This document shows, piece after piece, positions 29,551 through 36,358 of a stretch of DNA of 48,054 nt. The DNA comes from a virus (Duplodnaviria > Heunggongvirae > Uroviricota > Caudoviricetes). The position numbers and the translations under genes are program-made. A model generated the notes under the pieces. It was not told the origin of the DNA. It searched no databases and worked only from the letters and a program-made list of their open reading frames with translations. How positions within the stretch are numbered: position 1 is the first letter of the stretch; every line of letters starts with the position of its first letter. Location of the stretch: IMG/VR virus record IMGVR_UViG_2563366844_000004; one strand, given 5' to 3'.

Positions 29551-29625
<75 letters not shown>

Positions 29626-29628
29626 ATA

Positions 29629-29704
<76 letters not shown>

Positions 29705-30600: not shown

Positions 30601-30887
30601 AAATAACCTTCCTTTCTCCAGATTTCTTGCGTGCGAAAAACACCTTCTGCATGCATCAGGCGTAAATCTTCTTTGGTGTAATCGCTTGTTTTTACCCGCC
30701 CGTCGATTAAATCGTGGCATGAGCTACAGGCAATCGCCGCCTGCATATCGTGTGGTTTTGTCGCTGTTCCGCACGTTCCCGCCAGTCGGTAATGCGCCAG
30801 CACAGACGTTTCCGGATCGTGATTGCAGTAGCCAAGAATTCTGACGGTGCACATCCGCCCCCGCGCCGCTTTACGTAAATCCACCAT
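30597..30887 (-). CDS. YbcO-like protein (DUF1364, putative Zn-binding nuclease)
   Basis: 96 aa, Cys/His-rich (CTVRILGYCNHDPE...CSSCHDLIDGR), start codon overlaps upstream gene; nin-region position upstream of Q. Confidence 0.55.
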   Translation of the reverse strand: MVDLRKAARGRMCTVRILGYCNHDPETSVLAHYRLAGTCGTATKPHDMQAAIACSSCHDLIDGRVKTSDYTKEDLRLMHAEGVFRTQEIWRKEGYL

Positions 30888-31486
30888 TACGCAAACTCCA
30901 GCAGCTGCGCGGCCACATTTTCGACTTGTTCCGGAGAGGAAAATTTACGGAACAGAATCCAGTTCCACAGCACATTCAGAACAGATTTATAAACCTGCTG
31001 AAACTCGGTTTCGTCCATATTCGCAAAAGCGATAGATTTTGCCCGACGCCCGCGGCTACCGTCCGGATAAAAATGTTCGGTGTAAAATCCAGCCTGAATG
31101 GTTACCCACTCGCGAAAAGCCTCAAACGACTTTAGCAATGCCGTATCCCGGGTTCTGCGTGTCGCAACTGTATTCAGATATTGCTCTGCGGCATCACTCA
31201 GGGCTGGCGTGTGTTCCCGACCAACTGATTCGCACAGGTAATCAACGAAACCAGACAGCAGTTCTCGTTCGCGAGGCGTGATCGCCCCACCGACCGGAGT
31301 CCAGTAATCGAATCCCAGTTGCAGGAGTTTGAAAAAACGCTTGTGGAATGCGTAGTTACGCACACGCTTAAAGTCTGCGTGTATCCACTCGCCTATTTTG
31401 ATTTGATGCAGAAAATCACAACTCTCCGGCGTCGCCGGGAGAAGTAATCCGGAAGAGGTTTGTTTGACCAGTTGTATATGCGCCAT
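30887..31486 (-). CDS. Hypothetical nin-region protein (DUF1367-like)
   Basis: 199 aa ORF overlapping the start of the YbcO-like gene. Confidence 0.45.
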   Translation of the reverse strand: MAHIQLVKQTSSGLLLPATPESCDFLHQIKIGEWIHADFKRVRNYAFHKRFFKLLQLGFDYWTPVGGAITPRERELLSGFVDYLCESVGREHTPALSDAAEQYLNTVATRRTRDTALLKSFEAFREWVTIQAGFYTEHFYPDGSRGRRAKSIAFANMDETEFQQVYKSVLNVLWNWILFRKFSSPEQVENVAAQLLEFA

Positions 31487-31758
31487 TTCTTAATCTCTCG
31501 ATGGCGCAGCGCAGCAGATGCCAGTTGTTCAGGCTGACATATGAAGTATAAATAAACTGGCTCCAGTGTAAAGCCCCACCTTAATGGAATAAAAACCAAA
31601 AAACAGATTGCTGGGATACAAACAACGCTTATTATTAAAAGCGGTTAAACAAATTAAATTTTAATGTTATGCAAATCTGCCAGATCACCATAATATCTCA
31701 TTTGAAAACCGCTGAAATAACAACCCTATCAGGGTTAATCATATTAAGGTGAGTAAAT

Positions 31759-31845
31759 ATGGAAAACAACAAATCTGCACATTACGTTCCTTTTTTATCT
31801 ATAATACTTTTTGTATTTTGTTGTGTATGGGCGGTATTTTTATAA
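31759..31845 (+). CDS. Candidate 28 aa hydrophobic peptide (MENNKSAHYVPFLSIILFVFCCVWAVFL)
   Basis: ATG preceded by AAGGTGAG Shine-Dalgarno about 7 nt upstream; single predicted TM helix; followed by a GC hairpin; opposite strand to flanking genes in a 410 bp AT-rich intergenic region. Confidence 0.35.
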   Translation: MENNKSAHYVPFLSIILFVFCCVWAVFL

Positions 31846-31864
31846 AACACACCCACAAATAAAT

Positions 31865-31892
31865 CAAACCCGCTACAGCGGGTTTGATTTAT
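31865..31892. terminator. Bidirectional terminator-like hairpin between the small peptide ORF and the subtilase gene
   Basis: caaacccgctacagcgggtttg: stem caaacccgc/gcgggtttg, loop taca, T-rich flank on both strands. Confidence 0.45.
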
Positions 31893-31899
31893 ATAGTTG

Positions 31900-33506
31900 T
31901 TATACGGAAACTGGCACACGAGCAGGCAATGGATAGTGAGCCCAGTTATTAGCATTTAAAGCTCTTACGCCATCAGCATAAACTTGTGTGTTTCCATCTA
32001 ATGATTTTAAAGTTACTACAATAGTTACAGGTAAAGGCTCCATTAAGGCCGGTTCATTCGCTCTCAACGTTGTTTTAGCCTGAAGAGCCCAGTTACCCGA
32101 AGTAATTCCTTTATTAAATGCCTTGCGATGAATTTTTACTGGTAACCACTTTCCACCATGCTCAATTTGAGCTCTCTCATATCCAGATTGACCGTTTTCT
32201 CCTTCCATAGGCACTTTTCCTTTTATAGTATTATTCTCAATTAAGCCAAAACTTAGCTCTACGTTCGCGCGAACATATTCACTGCCGGCATTAGGGTTCA
32301 GTGGTGGTGCATATGCAGCAGTAATTACAATCTCACCTTTAAATTTTCCATTTTGAATAAGTGCCGATGGTATGGGATAGTTATCCTTTCTCCACCTCAC
32401 CCCAGGAACCAAGAATGTTTGGAAAATCAGAGTAAACCTATCATCACTATCATATAAGGTCTCAATAACTTCATTAGGAATTCCCGCTCCCAAATAGCGT
32501 CTTTCACTTGGCGAGTAATCAGGAGAAGATAATTGAGCGGAATGAATTAATAATGCTTTAATCAATGATGGTGAAACATTAAAGTCTGTATTAGTGGCTA
32601 TTCTCTGCCATGTATGCGCAGCTAAACTTGCCACAATTGGAGCAGCAAAACTAGTACCAAAATTAGAGCAAAGCCTATTATCTGGCCCTACGACCTTTAA
32701 ACTGCTTGCTCCTACATTCCAAGGTCTATGAACCCCACCGCCAGCATGGATTATATCTGGCTTTGGAGTAAATACAGGCCCAGGGCCACGACGAGTATAT
32801 GGTGTCGGTGTTCCAATTTCACTTAAAGCATCATTAGCTTCCATATGAGAAACTGAACCAACTGTTAGTGCTCGGACTGACTCTCCAGGAGAGGAAATTA
32901 AATCAGCACCTCCAAGCGGATCAGGATTTGGCCATGTACGTATAGGTTCATCTACATAATTACCTGCAGCAACTACAAACAAAATACCAAATTTATCGCT
33001 GAGCCGATCTAACTCCATCGCAAAATCACTAAACGTCTGCTCATTACATGGTCCGCCTCCCAAAGACAAATTCCAGACTTTTATATCTGGTCTTTTATTT
33101 ACAGCATCTGCTAGCCTCAGAATTAAATCTGATATATAAGATCCATTTTCATCTAAGGCACAAACATCATGGATTTTAGATTTTGTATCAGGAATCCATG
33201 GATGATTGTCATTTAAAAAATGAGCGCCTGATATCAATGAAGACACCATAGTCCCATGTTCATAACTCGTATCAGGAGGAATTACGTATGTTTCCCTACT
33301 CACTACCCAAGGAGTAATTGTTGCCGCGATGGGGCTTACCCCAGTGTCAAATACAGCAACAATGGGTAATTCTTCTGATGGTACGGGAAAGCTATTTGTT
33401 TCAATGCCAACAGAATCACTTACACTAACCGGGAATGCTGAATATTTTGGTTCAGGAATTAACGTTCTTATACCCGGGTAATCAATGAGAATGTCTAATA
33501 TATATC
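31900..33506 (-). pseudogene. S8 subtilisin-like serine peptidase, 3-prime fragment (catalytic domain plus C-terminal domain) of an IS903-interrupted gene
   Basis: Catalytic motifs all present: VAVFDTGV (Asp), HGTMVSS (His), AAGN (oxyanion Asn), GTSFAAP (Ser); reading frame open from the IS boundary at 33506 (track ORF begins at an internal GTG at 33303). Confidence 0.8.
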
Positions 33507-34562
33507 GGCTTTGTTGAATAAATAAGATTTCGTGCGAACGACCCTGTAGCTGGCTGGATTTTCAGGCAATACGCACGCTTTCTGGCATCCCAGCCTTTGT
33601 CATCCTGTTCAACGCACGCACCATGGCCATAGCTTCCGCTACCTGACCATCGTAGTCACGCAGCGTCAGTGAATCTCCCAACAACTGCTTCATTCTGTAC
33701 ATTGCCGTTTCCGCTATCGAGCGACGGTTATATTCCGTTGTCCATTTCCACCGTGCATTGCTTCCGCTCAGCCGCTGATTAGCAACGGCACGGTTGCGGT
33801 CTGCGTACTCACCGGGCCAGTAACCTGCTCCTTTTCGGGGAGGAATAAGCGCGCTGATTTTTTTGCGGCGCAGTTCATCGTGACAGAGCCGGGTATCGTA
33901 AGCCCCGTCTGCCGCGGCTGCCCTGATTTTTCTGTGAGTCTGCCGGATAAGGCCCGGGAAGGCTTCTGAGTCCGTGACGTTATTCAGCGACAGGTCTGCA
34001 CAGACAACTTCATGTGTGTTGCTGTCAACAGCAAGATGCAACTTTCGCCAGATACGACGGCGCTCTTTGCCGTGCTTTCTGACTTTCCATTCGCCTTCAC
34101 CAAAGACCTTCAGCCCGGTGGAATCAATCACCAGGTGTGCGATTTCACCCCGGGTGGACGTTTTGAAACTGACATTAACCGACTTTGCCCGCTTACTGAC
34201 ACTGGTGTAATCCGGGCAGCGCAACGGAACGTTCATCAGGGCAAAAATGGAATCAATAAAACCCTGCGCAGCCCGCAGGGTCAGCCGGAATACGCGTTTA
34301 ATCACCAGAACGGTGGTGATGGCGAGATCAGAATAGCGCTGGGGCCTTCCTCGTGATGAAGGCGTTGCCGACTCATACCAGGCCTGAATCGCTTCATCAT
34401 CCAGCCAGAAAGTGAGGGAGCCACGGTTGATGAGAGCTTTGTTGTAGGTGGACCAGTTGGTGATTCTGAACTTTTGCTTTGCCACGGAATGGTCTGTGTT
34501 GTCGGGAGGATGCGTGATCTGATCCTTCAACTCAGCAAAAGTTCGATTTATTCAACAAAGCC
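33507..34562 (-). mobile_element. IS903 (IS5 family) insertion sequence, about 1056 bp
   Basis: Terminal inverted repeats ggctttgttgaataaat at both ends; perfect 9 bp direct target duplication atatatatc at 33498-33506 and 34563-34571; encodes 307 aa transposase. Confidence 0.9.
33562..34485 (-). CDS. IS903 transposase (DDE)
   Basis: 307 aa from GTG: VAKQKFRITNWSTYNKALINRGSLTFWLDDEAIQAWY... matches IS903 transposase as I recall it; track ORF extends 15 codons upstream. Confidence 0.9.
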   Translation of the reverse strand: MAKQKFRITNWSTYNKALINRGSLTFWLDDEAIQAWYESATPSSRGRPQRYSDLAITTVLVIKRVFRLTLRAAQGFIDSIFALMNVPLRCPDYTSVSKRAKSVNVSFKTSTRGEIAHLVIDSTGLKVFGEGEWKVRKHGKERRRIWRKLHLAVDSNTHEVVCADLSLNNVTDSEAFPGLIRQTHRKIRAAAADGAYDTRLCHDELRRKKISALIPPRKGAGYWPGEYADRNRAVANQRLSGSNARWKWTTEYNRRSIAETAMYRMKQLLGDSLTLRDYDGQVAEAMAMVRALNRMTKAGMPESVRIA

Positions 34563-35229
34563 ATATATATCTATCATTTGGGGATAAATCCATTATCCTT
34601 AATAAGGGAAGACCACATTTTTGTCTAATCTCATCATATTTAACTCCGTGTTGTTCTAATATAGAAATAACGTTTTCATAGTTGTTGTAAGTTGCATCTT
34701 CACCTGTGTACTCAAATAGTCGTACAAGGATGTTTGATGATTCAAACAAACCATCAGTGCCTCCTGGAACCTTCCTATTCTCATCCCAAGGTTCAATGCG
34801 CTCAATCGCGCTTAGATTAGCCAAAATCGCTTTAATATTCCGATGTAAAATGACTGACTCTAATACGTCAAAACAGCCGGCATGAGCAGCAACCAACATT
34901 TCATCTATTTTGGCATGACCGGCATTTTGCAATCCAGCCTCTTGAGCAATTTTGTTCGGCCTATGCGTTTTGGCTATTCCCTGGTCTCTTAATTTGAAAA
35001 CCAAAGTACCCAAGCTTCCAGGGTACTCTGAAAGTTTGGATTCTAAATAATGTTTACTGGTTGTTAAATTTCTTACTAGCCCTTGTCTATATTCGGCTGT
35101 TACATCAACCAATACCTTTGCCCCACCGCCAGCGTTTACTATTGCACCCAAGTCACTACTGGAAAAAGGGATTCTTAACATTGGGTTTGTAACTTTTGCG
35201 TTACTAAACTGTGTACCCCTTCTGCTCAT
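34563..35229 (-). pseudogene. 5-prime fragment (N-terminal about 222 aa domain) of the IS903-interrupted S8 peptidase gene
   Basis: Frame ...PNDRYI runs into the IS (W-L-C-stop inside the inverted repeat); removing IS plus one TSD copy fuses it in frame to ...LDILIDYPG... of the downstream fragment; start overlaps ATPase stop. Confidence 0.75.
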
Positions 35230-36358
35230 ATGCTCCTGACTCCTTCAGAATGTTTGAAATTACTCTTGATGTAAGTTTGTACAAATTAGCAAGAACTCTG
35301 ATAGAAAATAATTTTTTATCTTTAGAACGTAACCAACGAATTTCATCTTCGTAAGTGCTTAAATTTACACCTTCCATAAGCGATTGAGCAAGATACAAAC
35401 GCCTATACAATTTATGGTGATTTATCACACTTGCACCTTCAATAACTGCATCCCTACGTGCATCCAAGCTCACCTGTTCAATTATTGCTCCGGATAATCC
35501 TTCCGATTTTCTTGATAAATCACTTAAATCTAGATCGCTACATATCATATTCTTTAAACGATTTTTCCAAATTAACTCTCTCTGATGTATGTCAGGCAGA
35601 GGCATTGGAATTCTGAAGCTAAATCGCCTCCAGATTGCAGGATCCAGAAGTTGCTCATGGTTAGTTGAGGCAATAATTACCGTATCCTCTGATGCCGCAT
35701 CCATATTCTGCAATAGTGAAATGACAACTCGCTGAAGCTCACCTATATCTCTCTCATTACCTCTTGCTCCAGCTAAAGCATCAAATTCGTCTAAAAAAAG
35801 CACTGATGGCCTCTGCATTACATAATCGAAAACCTGTCTAAGATTTTTGCTGGTTTGTCCCAATAAACTACTAATCAAAGTATCGCAACGCACTGTAAGA
35901 AGTGGAAAATCTAAGCGGGTAGCGATGTACTTAGATAACATAGTCTTACCTGTTCCTGGCTTTCCATACACGAGCATACGACTCGGCAATGCTGCATCAG
36001 CTTTAACAAACTCATCATAACGTTGAACATTAGTGATAAACTCTTCAACACGGGTACTGATTGCTGCAGGCAGAAAAATCTCTGAACTGTCTAATTTAGG
36101 ATAACTGACATCAACAGTGTTGAGTCGACTATCAATATCTACCGGTAATGAGCCCAGAGATATCCCACCTCCAGCCCTTTGAGCTCCTGCCAACGCCTGG
36201 GGAGCTCTAAGCAACCTTTCTCTTATCATTCTGGCTTGCTTGACCTCCCCTTTTTGTTCGAGCTTATCTGCCAGCAACCCAGCATAATTACTAGCCATCG
36301 AAGCATTTGCCTTTGTTGCACCTTCAATGATTTTTAACACTTCTGATAAATAATCCAT
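35204..36358 (-). CDS. AAA+ ATPase (classical AAA domain), partner of the S8 peptidase
   Basis: 384 aa; Walker A GKPGTGKT, Walker B LFLDEFDAL, sensor-1 IIASTN, Arg finger region WRRF; 190 bp AT-rich intergenic region upstream. Confidence 0.85.
   Translation of the reverse strand: MDYLSEVLKIIEGATKANASMASNYAGLLADKLEQKGEVKQARMIRERLLRAPQALAGAQRAGGGISLGSLPVDIDSRLNTVDVSYPKLDSSEIFLPAAISTRVEEFITNVQRYDEFVKADAALPSRMLVYGKPGTGKTMLSKYIATRLDFPLLTVRCDTLISSLLGQTSKNLRQVFDYVMQRPSVLFLDEFDALAGARGNERDIGELQRVVISLLQNMDAASEDTVIIASTNHEQLLDPAIWRRFSFRIPMPLPDIHQRELIWKNRLKNMICSDLDLSDLSRKSEGLSGAIIEQVSLDARRDAVIEGASVINHHKLYRRLYLAQSLMEGVNLSTYEDEIRWLRSKDKKLFSIRVLANLYKLTSRVISNILKESGAYEQKGYTV

What the first reader, a model, noticed from the sequence alone, without database searches (positions are those of the whole stretch)
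31487..31899. Candidate 28 aa hydrophobic peptide gene in a 410 bp AT-rich intergenic gap
On the opposite strand to its neighbours lies a short ORF (MENNKSAHYVPFLSIILFVFCCVWAVFL) with a strong Shine-Dalgarno (AAGGTGAG) and a GC hairpin terminator directly downstream. Size and hydrophobicity are typical of type I toxin peptides or small membrane proteins; I do not recognise it as Hok, Ldr, Ibs, ShoB, TisB or DinQ. The long 5-prime untranslated gap could encode a cis-antisense RNA.
Basis: inference. Interest (0 to 1): 0.5.

Follow-up and report, generated by a model that had tools for sequence, protein, structure and literature searches.

The report
Unannotated 28-codon membrane-peptide gene in prophage
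The short hydrophobic ORF is real and is part of a 338-bp module kept intact in Rac-like prophages of about a fifth of complete E. coli genomes, so it is probably a genuine but never-annotated small membrane-peptide gene; whether it is a toxin with an RNA antidote remains unproven.

Summary
A 28-codon ORF lies at 31759-31845 (+), with Shine-Dalgarno AAGGTGAG at 31746-31753 and a perfect 16-bp hairpin at 31859-31892. All sit in a 413-bp gap of 34.6% GC between a DUF1367 gene and iteS, both on the minus strand.

The ORF alone is not remarkable: 85% of shuffles of the gap contain an ATG ORF of this length. The evidence is comparative.
- The ORF ends a 338-bp module (31509-31846) found in 1177 of 5426 complete E. 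coli genomes, never annotated in the rows listed.
- All 127 uninterrupted copies I could read keep exactly 28 codons, in 13 peptide variants.
- Three unrelated flanks join the module one base after the stop codon.
- Between the two deep lineages, codon positions 1+2 diverge 12%, position 3 diverges 31% and the adjacent 5' UTR 45%.

It matches no known toxin, protein or RNA family, and occurs only in Escherichia and Shigella.

The terminator is not conserved. An antisense promoter is predicted, but its terminator and the occlusion of the Shine-Dalgarno are weak.

Verdict: probably a real small membrane-peptide gene of a new family. The type I toxin reading is plausible but untested.

The parts
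31509..31846 (+). Conserved 338-bp module: Block A, spacer, Block B, 5' UTR, SD and ORF. It sits between the variable cargo/defence island and the nin-like genes of Rac/Qin-type prophages.
   Evidence: Matches in the E. coli genomes end at query positions equal to window 31846-31847. In CFT073 the match starts at 31509, next to a different downstream gene.
31759..31845 (+). 28-codon ORF (MENNKSAHYVPFLSIILFVFCCVWAVFL), stop TAA at 31843-31845. It has a polar N-terminus of 9 residues and a C-terminal hydrophobic stretch of 19.
   Evidence: 127/127 intact, 13 peptide variants; pN/pS 0.30, the only frame without stops; differences by codon position 2/5/9.
31746..31753 (+). Shine-Dalgarno AAGGTGAG, 5 nt before the ATG. 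Variants elsewhere are AAAGTGAG, AAAGCGAG, AAGGTAAG and AAGGTGGT.
31664..31696 (+). Conserved 5'-UTR hairpin P1. Outer stem ATGTTATG (31664-31671) pairs with CATAATAT (31689-31696). The inner stem ATCT/AGAT is replaced by different but still pairing sequences in other lineages.
   Evidence: it folds in all but one sequence variant (126 of the 127 copies tabulated). Some lineages have G.U where others have G-C, and some have extra pairs.
31627..31675 (.). Block B, an AT-rich block far more conserved than its surroundings: 14% divergence between deep lineages, against 36-45% in the spacers.
31509..31573 (.). Block A, nearly invariant (8% divergence). It holds a strong promoter-like site on the minus strand, TTTACA (31572-31567), 16 nt, TATACT (31550-31545), pointing at DUF1367. 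It also holds the inverted repeat GCCAGTT (31520-31526) / AACTGGC (31555-31561).
   Evidence: The inverted repeat is read from the sequence.
31608..31635 (+). Candidate promoter of the ORF transcript: TTGCTG, 16 nt, TATTAT. The predicted start near 31642 would give a 5' UTR of about 115 nt.
   Evidence: present in 9 of 10 lineage representatives, but not in the most divergent lineage, which has an 8-nt insertion there. Prediction only.
31738..31765 (-). Candidate antisense promoter overlapping the SD and ATG: TTTCCA, 16 nt, TATGAT. The predicted start near 31731 would give an RNA complementary to the 5' UTR.
   Evidence: found in all 10 representatives, with scores of 3.1-6.6. The promoter count in the region does not exceed that of shuffles. 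Prediction only.
31697..31753 (+). Possible SD-occluding helix: CTCATTT (31697-31703) pairs with AGGTGAG (31747-31753).
   Evidence: 97.7% of cells paired, with an A-U > G.U > G-C series at one pair; predicted SD accessibility does not differ from shuffled-UTR controls. Weak.
31859..31892 (.). Bidirectional terminator-like hairpin, read as shared by the ORF transcript and iteS. It is specific to this lineage's flank and is not part of the module.
   Evidence: The iteS stop lies at 31900.

Best explanation
The gap holds a conserved, self-contained prophage module. Its end on the plus strand is a real 28-codon gene, read against the phage's early operon.

The product is a peptide with a short polar cytoplasmic head (MENNKSAHY) and a single C-terminal hydrophobic helix that would insert in the inner membrane. 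The gene looks like a moron: it has its own 5' UTR with a conserved hairpin (P1) and an unusually conserved AT-rich block. It travels with the junction between the variable defence/cargo island (here iteA-iteS, more often hokD) and the nin-like genes.

The most likely mode of action is a membrane-active, potentially toxic peptide kept at low expression by its 5' UTR, possibly helped by an RNA made from the antisense promoter that overlaps its SD and ATG. That would be type-I-toxin-like.

Shown: presence, conservation, ORF integrity, a coding-type substitution pattern, the P1 hairpin, and absence from known families. Inferred: translation, membrane insertion, toxicity, and any RNA antitoxin.
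For: Distribution. The module is in 1176-1177 of 5426 complete E. coli genomes at 73-100% identity. No feature was annotated under the match in any row listed.

ORF integrity. Copies were fetched with patterns taken from the non-ORF blocks, which do not require the ORF. Of 133 copies, 127 have an intact 28-codon ORF, 3 are cut by contig ends and 3 are interrupted by IS elements. None has a frameshift or nonsense mutation.

Module boundary. Three unrelated flanks (iteS type, hokD type, DUF1971 type) all diverge one base after the TAA.

Substitution pattern between the two deep lineages:
- The ORF diverges 18% with no gap columns; the adjacent 5' UTR diverges 45% with 2 gap columns.
- Differences by codon position are 2/5/9.
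- Positions 1+2 versus UTR, Fisher p = 7e-5; position 3 versus UTR, p = 0.26; position 3 versus positions 1+2, p = 0.04.
- pN/pS is 0.30 in the ORF frame, the lowest of the six frames and the only one free of stops.

Peptide. Replacements in the hydrophobic part are mostly V/A/I/L/F/C swaps.

Translation signals. The SD is at optimal spacing and the first codons are A-rich.

RNA structure. P1 is conserved with changed inner stems. G.U pairs in P1, H2 and H3 fit a plus-strand RNA.
Against: - There is no direct evidence of transcription or translation.
- A stricter single-step test against the consensus is not significant: 12 synonymous of 31 changes against 28% expected, p = 0.14. The probability of no disruption by chance is 0.06.
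- Diversity is shallow, with two deep lineages only, and one sub-lineage changed 3 residues with no synonymous change.
- The ORF strand is T-rich, which produces hydrophobic codons for free.
- No plus-strand promoter is conserved in all lineages.
- The downstream terminator is not conserved.
- SD occlusion is no stronger than in shuffled controls.
- The candidate antisense RNA has only a -5 kcal/mol hairpin, which is lost in one lineage.
- Blocks A and B are more conserved than the ORF, so part of the module's constraint is clearly not coding.
Confidence: 0.55

Rival explanations
1. The module is a non-coding regulatory unit and the ORF is incidental. Either a plus-strand RNA read against the early-right operon acts as an antisense or interference RNA, in the way lambda OOP does. 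Or a minus-strand small RNA made from the promoter overlapping the ATG carries the conserved AT-rich Block B as its seed.
For: - Blocks A and B are more conserved than the ORF, at 8% and 14% against 18%.
- P1 is an RNA-type hairpin with covarying inner stems.
- In hokD-adjacent copies the plus-strand transcript has no T-run after the hairpin and would run antisense into hokD.
- An ORF of this length arises by chance in 85% of shuffles.
- The single-step synonymous test is not significant.
Against: - Substitutions are biased to third codon positions, and positions 1+2 are four-fold more conserved than the neighbouring UTR.
- There are no indels or stops in 127 copies, while the rest of the module carries several indels.
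- Homology ends exactly at the stop codon for three different flanks.
- The SD is kept at fixed spacing.
- There is no Rfam match on either strand.
- The minus-strand hairpin is weak and not conserved.
Confidence: 0.27
2. The module is cis-regulatory DNA of the phage, comprising a terminator, a promoter and operators that control the DUF1367-DUF1364-DUF1133 (nin/Q-like) operon. The plus-strand ORF is a by-product of conserved AT-rich DNA.
For: - The only strong promoter-like site conserved in every lineage is on the minus strand and points at the nin-like genes.
- It lies in the nearly invariant Block A, between the arms of a 7-bp inverted repeat.
- The module always sits directly upstream of those genes, whichever gene comes first.
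Against: - This explains Block A but not the ORF end of the module, which lies 190-300 bp upstream of that promoter.
- It does not explain the codon-periodic substitution pattern, the kept SD and ATG, or the absence of indels.
- G.U-containing helices fit RNA rather than protein-binding DNA.
Confidence: 0.13
3. The peptide is a signal-peptide-like lipoprotein precursor, or a spanin-like fragment, that is processed at its cysteines.
For: There are weak, sub-threshold similarities to lipoprotein and o-spanin signal peptides: NF033515 at E = 0.03-0.75 and phrog_6073 at E = 0.24. One lineage reads LFAC or FAGC before a cysteine.
Against: - In the window variant, and in most variants, the residue before the cysteine is F or L, which is not a lipobox. 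This rests on my own knowledge of the lipobox consensus.
- The mature product would be only 7-8 residues.
- The hits lie far below the curated cut-offs (14 bits against 35).
- The gene is not near the lysis cassette.
Confidence: 0.03

Closest known systems
Type I toxin-antitoxin loci of enterobacteria (hok/sok, tisB/istR-1, zorO/orzO, shoB/ohsC, ibs/sib, ldr/rdl)
   Same: It is a very small hydrophobic single-helix peptide. Its mRNA has a long, structured 5' UTR. It is carried on a mobile element, in a defence hotspot, and in 69 of 124 copies sits directly beside hokD. A promoter-like site on the opposite strand would give an RNA complementary to the 5' UTR.
   Different: There is no sequence or profile similarity to any of these toxins. 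No antitoxin RNA is demonstrated. The candidate has no conserved terminator and there is no complementary repeat elsewhere in the prophage. SD occlusion is not stronger than in controls. The hydrophobic helix runs to the very C-terminus with no charged tail. Toxicity is unknown.
Small single-pass membrane proteins of E. coli found by ribosome profiling (for example YohP, MgtS, PmrR), and the unannotated 'SMP' sORFs reported for CFT073 (bioRxiv 10.64898/2026.09.28.754932)
   Same: The size (under 50 aa), the single predicted helix, omission from annotation because of length, and location in a horizontally acquired island. CFT073 carries this very ORF at complement(1338563..1338649).
   Different: There is no homology. 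I could not establish whether the ORF is in that catalogue: the coordinates printed in the main text (SMP3, SMP7, YohO) are elsewhere, and the supplementary tables are not held.
Gifsy-1 isrK-orf45-anrP unit of Salmonella (PMC4825925)
   Same: By that paper's abstract, IsrK is a Gifsy-1 prophage RNA that exists both as a short regulatory RNA and as a longer, translationally inactive mRNA that the short form switches on, and it sits next to the antiterminator gene antQ. That this unit carries a small ORF (orf45) and is read against its neighbours is my recollection; I did not read the paper.
   Different: No sequence or Rfam similarity was found at any threshold I used. Here no gene follows the small ORF in most lineages, and no dual RNA isoforms are known.
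Lambda OOP antisense RNA (own knowledge)
   Same: A short transcript read against the early-right operon of a lambdoid phage, ending at a strong hairpin next to the 3' end of the upstream gene.
   Different: OOP is non-coding and overlaps cII. Here the conserved part is an ORF with an SD and a coding-type substitution pattern, and the hairpin is not conserved.

Membership tests
Type I toxin-antitoxin system | Small (under about 60 aa) hydrophobic peptide with one predicted transmembrane helix | tested here: met
   28 aa. Residues 10-28 have a mean Kyte-Doolittle value of +2.73. Hydrophobicity is kept in all 13 variants.
Type I toxin-antitoxin system | An RNA antitoxin that base-pairs with the toxin mRNA, either cis-antisense or a nearby divergent gene with a complementary stretch | tested here: inconclusive
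   A promoter-like site at 31765-31738 (-) would give an RNA antisense to the 5' UTR. Its only hairpin is -5 kcal/mol and is absent in one lineage. Promoter-like sites are not enriched over shuffles. There is no complementary copy elsewhere in the window.
Type I toxin-antitoxin system | Toxin mRNA held translationally inactive by its own structure (occluded SD, long 5' UTR) | tested here: inconclusive
   The conserved hairpin P1 and a covarying SD-pairing helix exist. However, ensemble SD accessibility equals that of shuffled controls in 6 lineages. The 9-nt distal anti-SD is not conserved.
Type I toxin-antitoxin system | Growth arrest or killing on overexpression, relieved by the RNA | not testable with these tools
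   Needs an experiment.
Known enterobacterial type I toxin families (Hok/Gef, Ldr, Ibs, ShoB, TisB, DinQ, ZorO) | Sequence or profile similarity to the family | tested here: not met
   No such family appears among the Pfam-A or NCBIfam matches at E up to 10 for three variants. That these libraries hold models for all seven families is my recollection, not checked. tblastn finds only the same element.
Phage moron (independent accessory transcription unit) | A gene inserted between conserved phage genes, with its own promoter and terminator and an atypical composition | tested here: inconclusive
   It lies between the cargo island and the nin-like genes on the opposite strand. ORF GC is 27.6% against 47.3% for the window. 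The promoter is predicted in 9 of 10 lineages only. A terminator is present here but not in the other flank types.
Bacterial lipoprotein / o-spanin | A lipobox with a small residue before the cysteine, and a mature domain | tested here: not met
   The window variant reads FVFCC, and only 7-8 residues would remain after cleavage. HMM hits are far below cut-off. The lipobox rule is from my own knowledge.
Any described RNA family (Rfam 15) | Covariance-model match at the gathering score | tested here: not met
   The best hits reach 28 bits against a cut-off of 55. All are driven by the terminator hairpin.

The most novel reading that the evidence does not exclude
The module is a new type I toxin-antitoxin family: a 28-aa membrane toxin plus a cis-antisense RNA from the promoter overlapping its SD and ATG. 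It marks the edge of the defence island in Rac-like prophages of a fifth of E. coli genomes. It is usually paired tail-to-tail with hokD, so that the two toxin transcripts share or invade each other's 3' ends.
Probability: 0.22. Interest if true: 0.6.

Novelty: new member of a known kind. Interest (0 to 1): 0.45.

Why it matters
If translated, this is a widespread E. coli gene, present in about 22% of complete genomes, that every annotation pipeline misses. At 87 nt with its stop it is below the length at which common gene callers report a gene (my inference), and the peptide is absent from a collection of 15 billion predicted proteins.

It sits at a fixed boundary of a prophage defence hotspot next to hokD. 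A membrane-active peptide there could contribute to abortive infection, superinfection exclusion or prophage maintenance. It would also add a family to the short list of enterobacterial small toxins.

It is directly testable with existing CFT073 Ribo-seq data and simple induction experiments.

Tried and rejected
- Rfam on both strands at E up to 10 gave only sub-threshold hits to the terminator.
- Pfam, NCBIfam, PHROGs and PADLOC on 3-4 peptide variants gave nothing meaningful.
Exact look-up of five variants found none in the 15-billion protein collection.
- tblastn against phages and plasmids found only the same element. The two 'plasmid' records are 4.8-4.9 Mb, that is chromosome-sized.
- A degenerate codon pattern over one genome per species found only Shigella flexneri and Escherichia ruysiae, both already-known variants.
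- Patterns demanding other synonymous codons found nothing in IMG/VR.
- A blastn 'distant' search found no third lineage.
- The element is absent from K-12 Qin and from Sakai Sp5, which carries hokW.
- The distal anti-SD CACCTTAAT (31577-31585) and the 9-nt direct repeat CAAATCTGC are not conserved, so I treat them as chance.
- RNAalifold on the whole module gave a covariation term of about zero.
- SD accessibility was no different from shuffled UTRs.
- The small minus-strand hairpin at 31626-31643 was rejected as a conserved terminator.
- There is no second copy or complementary stretch longer than 12 nt elsewhere in the window.
- The overlapping 37-aa GTG ORF (31749-31862) has an internal stop in one variant and, reading the sequence, stops after 7 codons in the divergent lineage.
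- Literature searches found no description of the peptide or locus. The CFT073 small-proteome preprint may contain it, but its tables are not available here.

Full report
**What is in the window.** The gap 31487-31899 is 413 bp at 34.6% GC, against 47.3% for the whole window. It lies between a DUF1367 gene (30887-31486) and the C-terminal part of iteS (31900-33303), both on the minus strand.

An almost identical locus in E. coli strain 144 shows the context. It is a Rac/Qin-type lambdoid prophage whose genes all read on the minus strand, in this order: ydaU, ydaV, DUF1627, DUF977, iteA, iteS, the gap, DUF1367, DUF1364, DUF1133, two tRNAs, then the lysis genes.

On the plus strand I confirm three features:
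- The ORF at 31759-31845, MENNKSAHYVPFLSIILFVFCCVWAVFL.
- AAGGTGAG at 31746-31753, five bases before the ATG.
- A perfect 16-nt inverted repeat at 31859-31892 with a T-rich tail.

**Is it more than chance?** Not by itself. In 3000 dinucleotide-preserving shuffles of the gap, 85% contain an ATG ORF of at least 28 codons, and 6% contain one with an SD-like pentamer upstream. The strand is T-rich (ORF GC 27.6%), which makes hydrophobic codons cheap. The case has to rest on comparison with other genomes.

**Distribution.** The gap sequence is present in 1176-1177 of 5426 complete E. coli genomes at 73-100% identity, usually once per genome. No feature was annotated under the match in any of the rows listed. 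It is also in four deposited phage genomes.

Among one genome per species, a degenerate codon pattern found it only in Shigella flexneri and Escherichia ruysiae. K-12 Qin and Sakai Sp5 lack it. The peptide is absent from a collection of 15 billion predicted proteins. I infer this is because 87 nt falls below the length at which common gene callers report a gene.

**The conserved unit.** Matches stop at window 31846-31847, one or two bases after the stop codon. What lies beyond falls into three unrelated types:
- The iteS flank with the hairpin, as here: 14 of the 124 copies read.
- A hokD flank. 69 of 124 copies have an intact hokD gene convergent with the ORF, with about 105 nt between the two stop codons. 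The hairpin there, followed by its T-run on the hok strand, reads as hok's own terminator, and it has no T-run on the ORF strand.
- A flank with no hairpin, followed after 440 nt by a DUF1971 gene.

At the other end, in CFT073 the homology starts at 31509, next to a different downstream gene. The unit is thus 31509-31846, and the 'terminator directly downstream' is not part of it.

**Coding evidence.** I fetched copies from IMG/VR with two patterns taken from the non-ORF blocks, so the patterns did not require the ORF. Of 133 copies, 127 have an intact 28-codon ORF, 3 run off contig ends and 3 are interrupted by IS elements. None has a frameshift or a nonsense codon. There are 17 distinct coding sequences and 13 peptides.

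Between the two deep lineages, divergence is as follows:

| Region | Divergence | Gap columns |
|---|---|---|
| Block A (31509-31573) | 8% | 0 |
| Spacer (31574-31626) | 36% | 8 |
| Block B (31627-31675) | 14% | 0 |
| 5' UTR spacer (31676-31745) | 45% | 2 |
| ORF (31759-31845) | 18% | 0 |

Within the ORF the differences fall 2/5/9 by codon position:
- Positions 1+2 are far more conserved than the UTR spacer (Fisher p = 7e-5).
- Position 3 is not (p = 0.26).
- Position 3 exceeds positions 1+2 (p = 0.04).

Pairwise pN/pS is 0.30 in the ORF frame. That is the lowest of the six frames, and it is the only frame without stops. Replacements in the helix are mostly V/A/I/L/F/C swaps.

Three cautions apply:
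- A single-step test against the consensus is not significant: 12 synonymous of 31 changes against 28% expected, p = 0.14. The chance of no disruption is 0.06.
- Recombination inflates the event counts.
- One sub-lineage changed three residues with no synonymous change.

I read the evidence as moderately strong for a translated gene, not as proof.

**The rest of the module.** Blocks A and B are more conserved than the ORF, so non-coding constraint is also present.

Block A contains the only strong promoter-like site conserved in all lineages: TTTACA, 16 nt, TATACT on the minus strand, pointing at the nin-like genes. It lies between the arms of the inverted repeat GCCAGTT / AACTGGC.

For the ORF transcript the best candidate promoter is TTGCTG, 16 nt, TATTAT at 31608-31635. 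It is present in 9 of 10 lineage representatives but not in the most divergent one.

The 5' UTR holds a hairpin, P1 (31664-31696). Its 8-bp outer stem is kept in every lineage, while the inner stem and loop are replaced by different but still pairing sequences. It folds in all but one sequence variant, which is 126 of the 127 copies tabulated.

A helix pairing CTCATTT with the SD shows an A-U > G.U > G-C series and is 97.7% paired. But the predicted accessibility of the SD is no lower than with shuffled UTRs, so I treat SD occlusion as unproven. G.U pairs in these helices fit a plus-strand RNA.

**An antitoxin?** A promoter-like site on the minus strand (31765-31738) overlaps the ATG and SD. 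It would make an RNA complementary to the 5' UTR, and it is recognisable in all lineages, though weak in one.

However, promoter-like sites are no more frequent here than in shuffles. The only hairpin that could end such an RNA is about -5 kcal/mol and disappears in one lineage. No complementary stretch longer than 12 nt exists elsewhere in the window. The antisense RNA remains a hypothesis.

**Comparison with what is known.**
- There is no Rfam match.
- There is no Pfam, NCBIfam, PHROGs or PADLOC match beyond chance-level resemblance to signal peptides.
- tblastn finds only the same element.

In architecture it resembles type I toxins and the small single-pass membrane proteins found by ribosome profiling.

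A 2026 preprint reports 338 unannotated translated sORFs in CFT073, six of them novel membrane peptides. CFT073 carries this ORF at complement(1338563..1338649). The printed coordinates (SMP3, SMP7, YohO) are elsewhere and the tables are not held, so I cannot say whether it is among them.

**Verdict.** This is most likely a real, unannotated small membrane-peptide gene that forms the end of a conserved prophage module (confidence 0.55). It is a new family of a known kind. The type I toxin-antitoxin reading fits the architecture and the neighbourhood, but its defining features (RNA antitoxin, toxicity) are untested or inconclusive; I give it about 0.2.

The main rival is a non-coding RNA or regulatory module with an incidental ORF (about 0.27). 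A purely cis-regulatory DNA reading comes next (about 0.13).

Noticed in passing
window 31900-35229: The anti-phage peptidase gene iteS is split by an IS5-family insertion (transposase ORF 33562-34530). IteS profile positions 279-747 lie at 31900-33303 and positions 1-208 at 34552-35229. iteA (35204-36358) is intact. In strain 144 iteS is one uninterrupted 2265-nt gene.
   Followed up: yes
L002 4338-4599, L005 4338-4622 and 67 other loci: In 69 of 124 copies read, the module is tail-to-tail with an intact hokD gene, with about 105 nt between the two stop codons. The hairpin between them has a T-run only on the hok strand, so a transcript of the small ORF could run antisense into hokD's 3' end.
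   Followed up: partly
window 31509-31573: This block is nearly invariant and more conserved than the ORF. It holds a strong minus-strand promoter-like site (TTTACA, 16 nt, TATACT) aimed at the DUF1367-DUF1364-DUF1133 genes, between the arms of the inverted repeat GCCAGTT (31520-31526) / AACTGGC (31555-31561). It may be a regulated promoter of the nin/Q-like operon.
   Followed up: partly
L127 (F2_81), L128 (XJ5.2), L134, L143: IS elements are inserted inside the module, always upstream of the ORF. An IS3-family element sits within the SD, an IS1 near window 31546, and an unidentified IS-like sequence near 31605 in two IMG/VR contigs. This recalls the IS-inactivated hok loci of K-12 (own knowledge), but AT-rich DNA is a common IS target anyway.
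   Followed up: partly
L003 4368-5152: In the divergent lineage no hairpin follows the ORF. About 440 nt downstream on the same strand lies a DUF1971 gene, preceded by a long perfect hairpin (CCTCCAAAAGATGCATT / AATGCATCTTTTGGAGG) that overlaps its ribosome-binding site.
   Followed up: no
L132, L135, L137, L140, L141 (ORF region): A sub-lineage encodes MENNNYAHLAPFLSVILFAGCFIWALFL. Compared with its closest relative it has three amino-acid changes (K5N, F6Y, C20G) and no synonymous change, and it keeps only one cysteine. The paired cysteines also shift by one position between the two deep lineages (VFCC versus ACCF).
   Followed up: no
window 29551-29704: tRNA-Gly(TCC) and tRNA-Thr(TGT) genes lie between the DUF1133 (Q-like) gene and the lysis genes. 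CFT073 has tRNA-Ile and two tRNA-Arg genes downstream of its antitermination gene.
   Followed up: no
Two PLSDB 'plasmid' records that carry the element are 4.8-4.9 Mb long, so they are chromosomes filed as plasmids. Three places in the E. coli collection are reported on plasmids, and I did not examine them.
   Followed up: no
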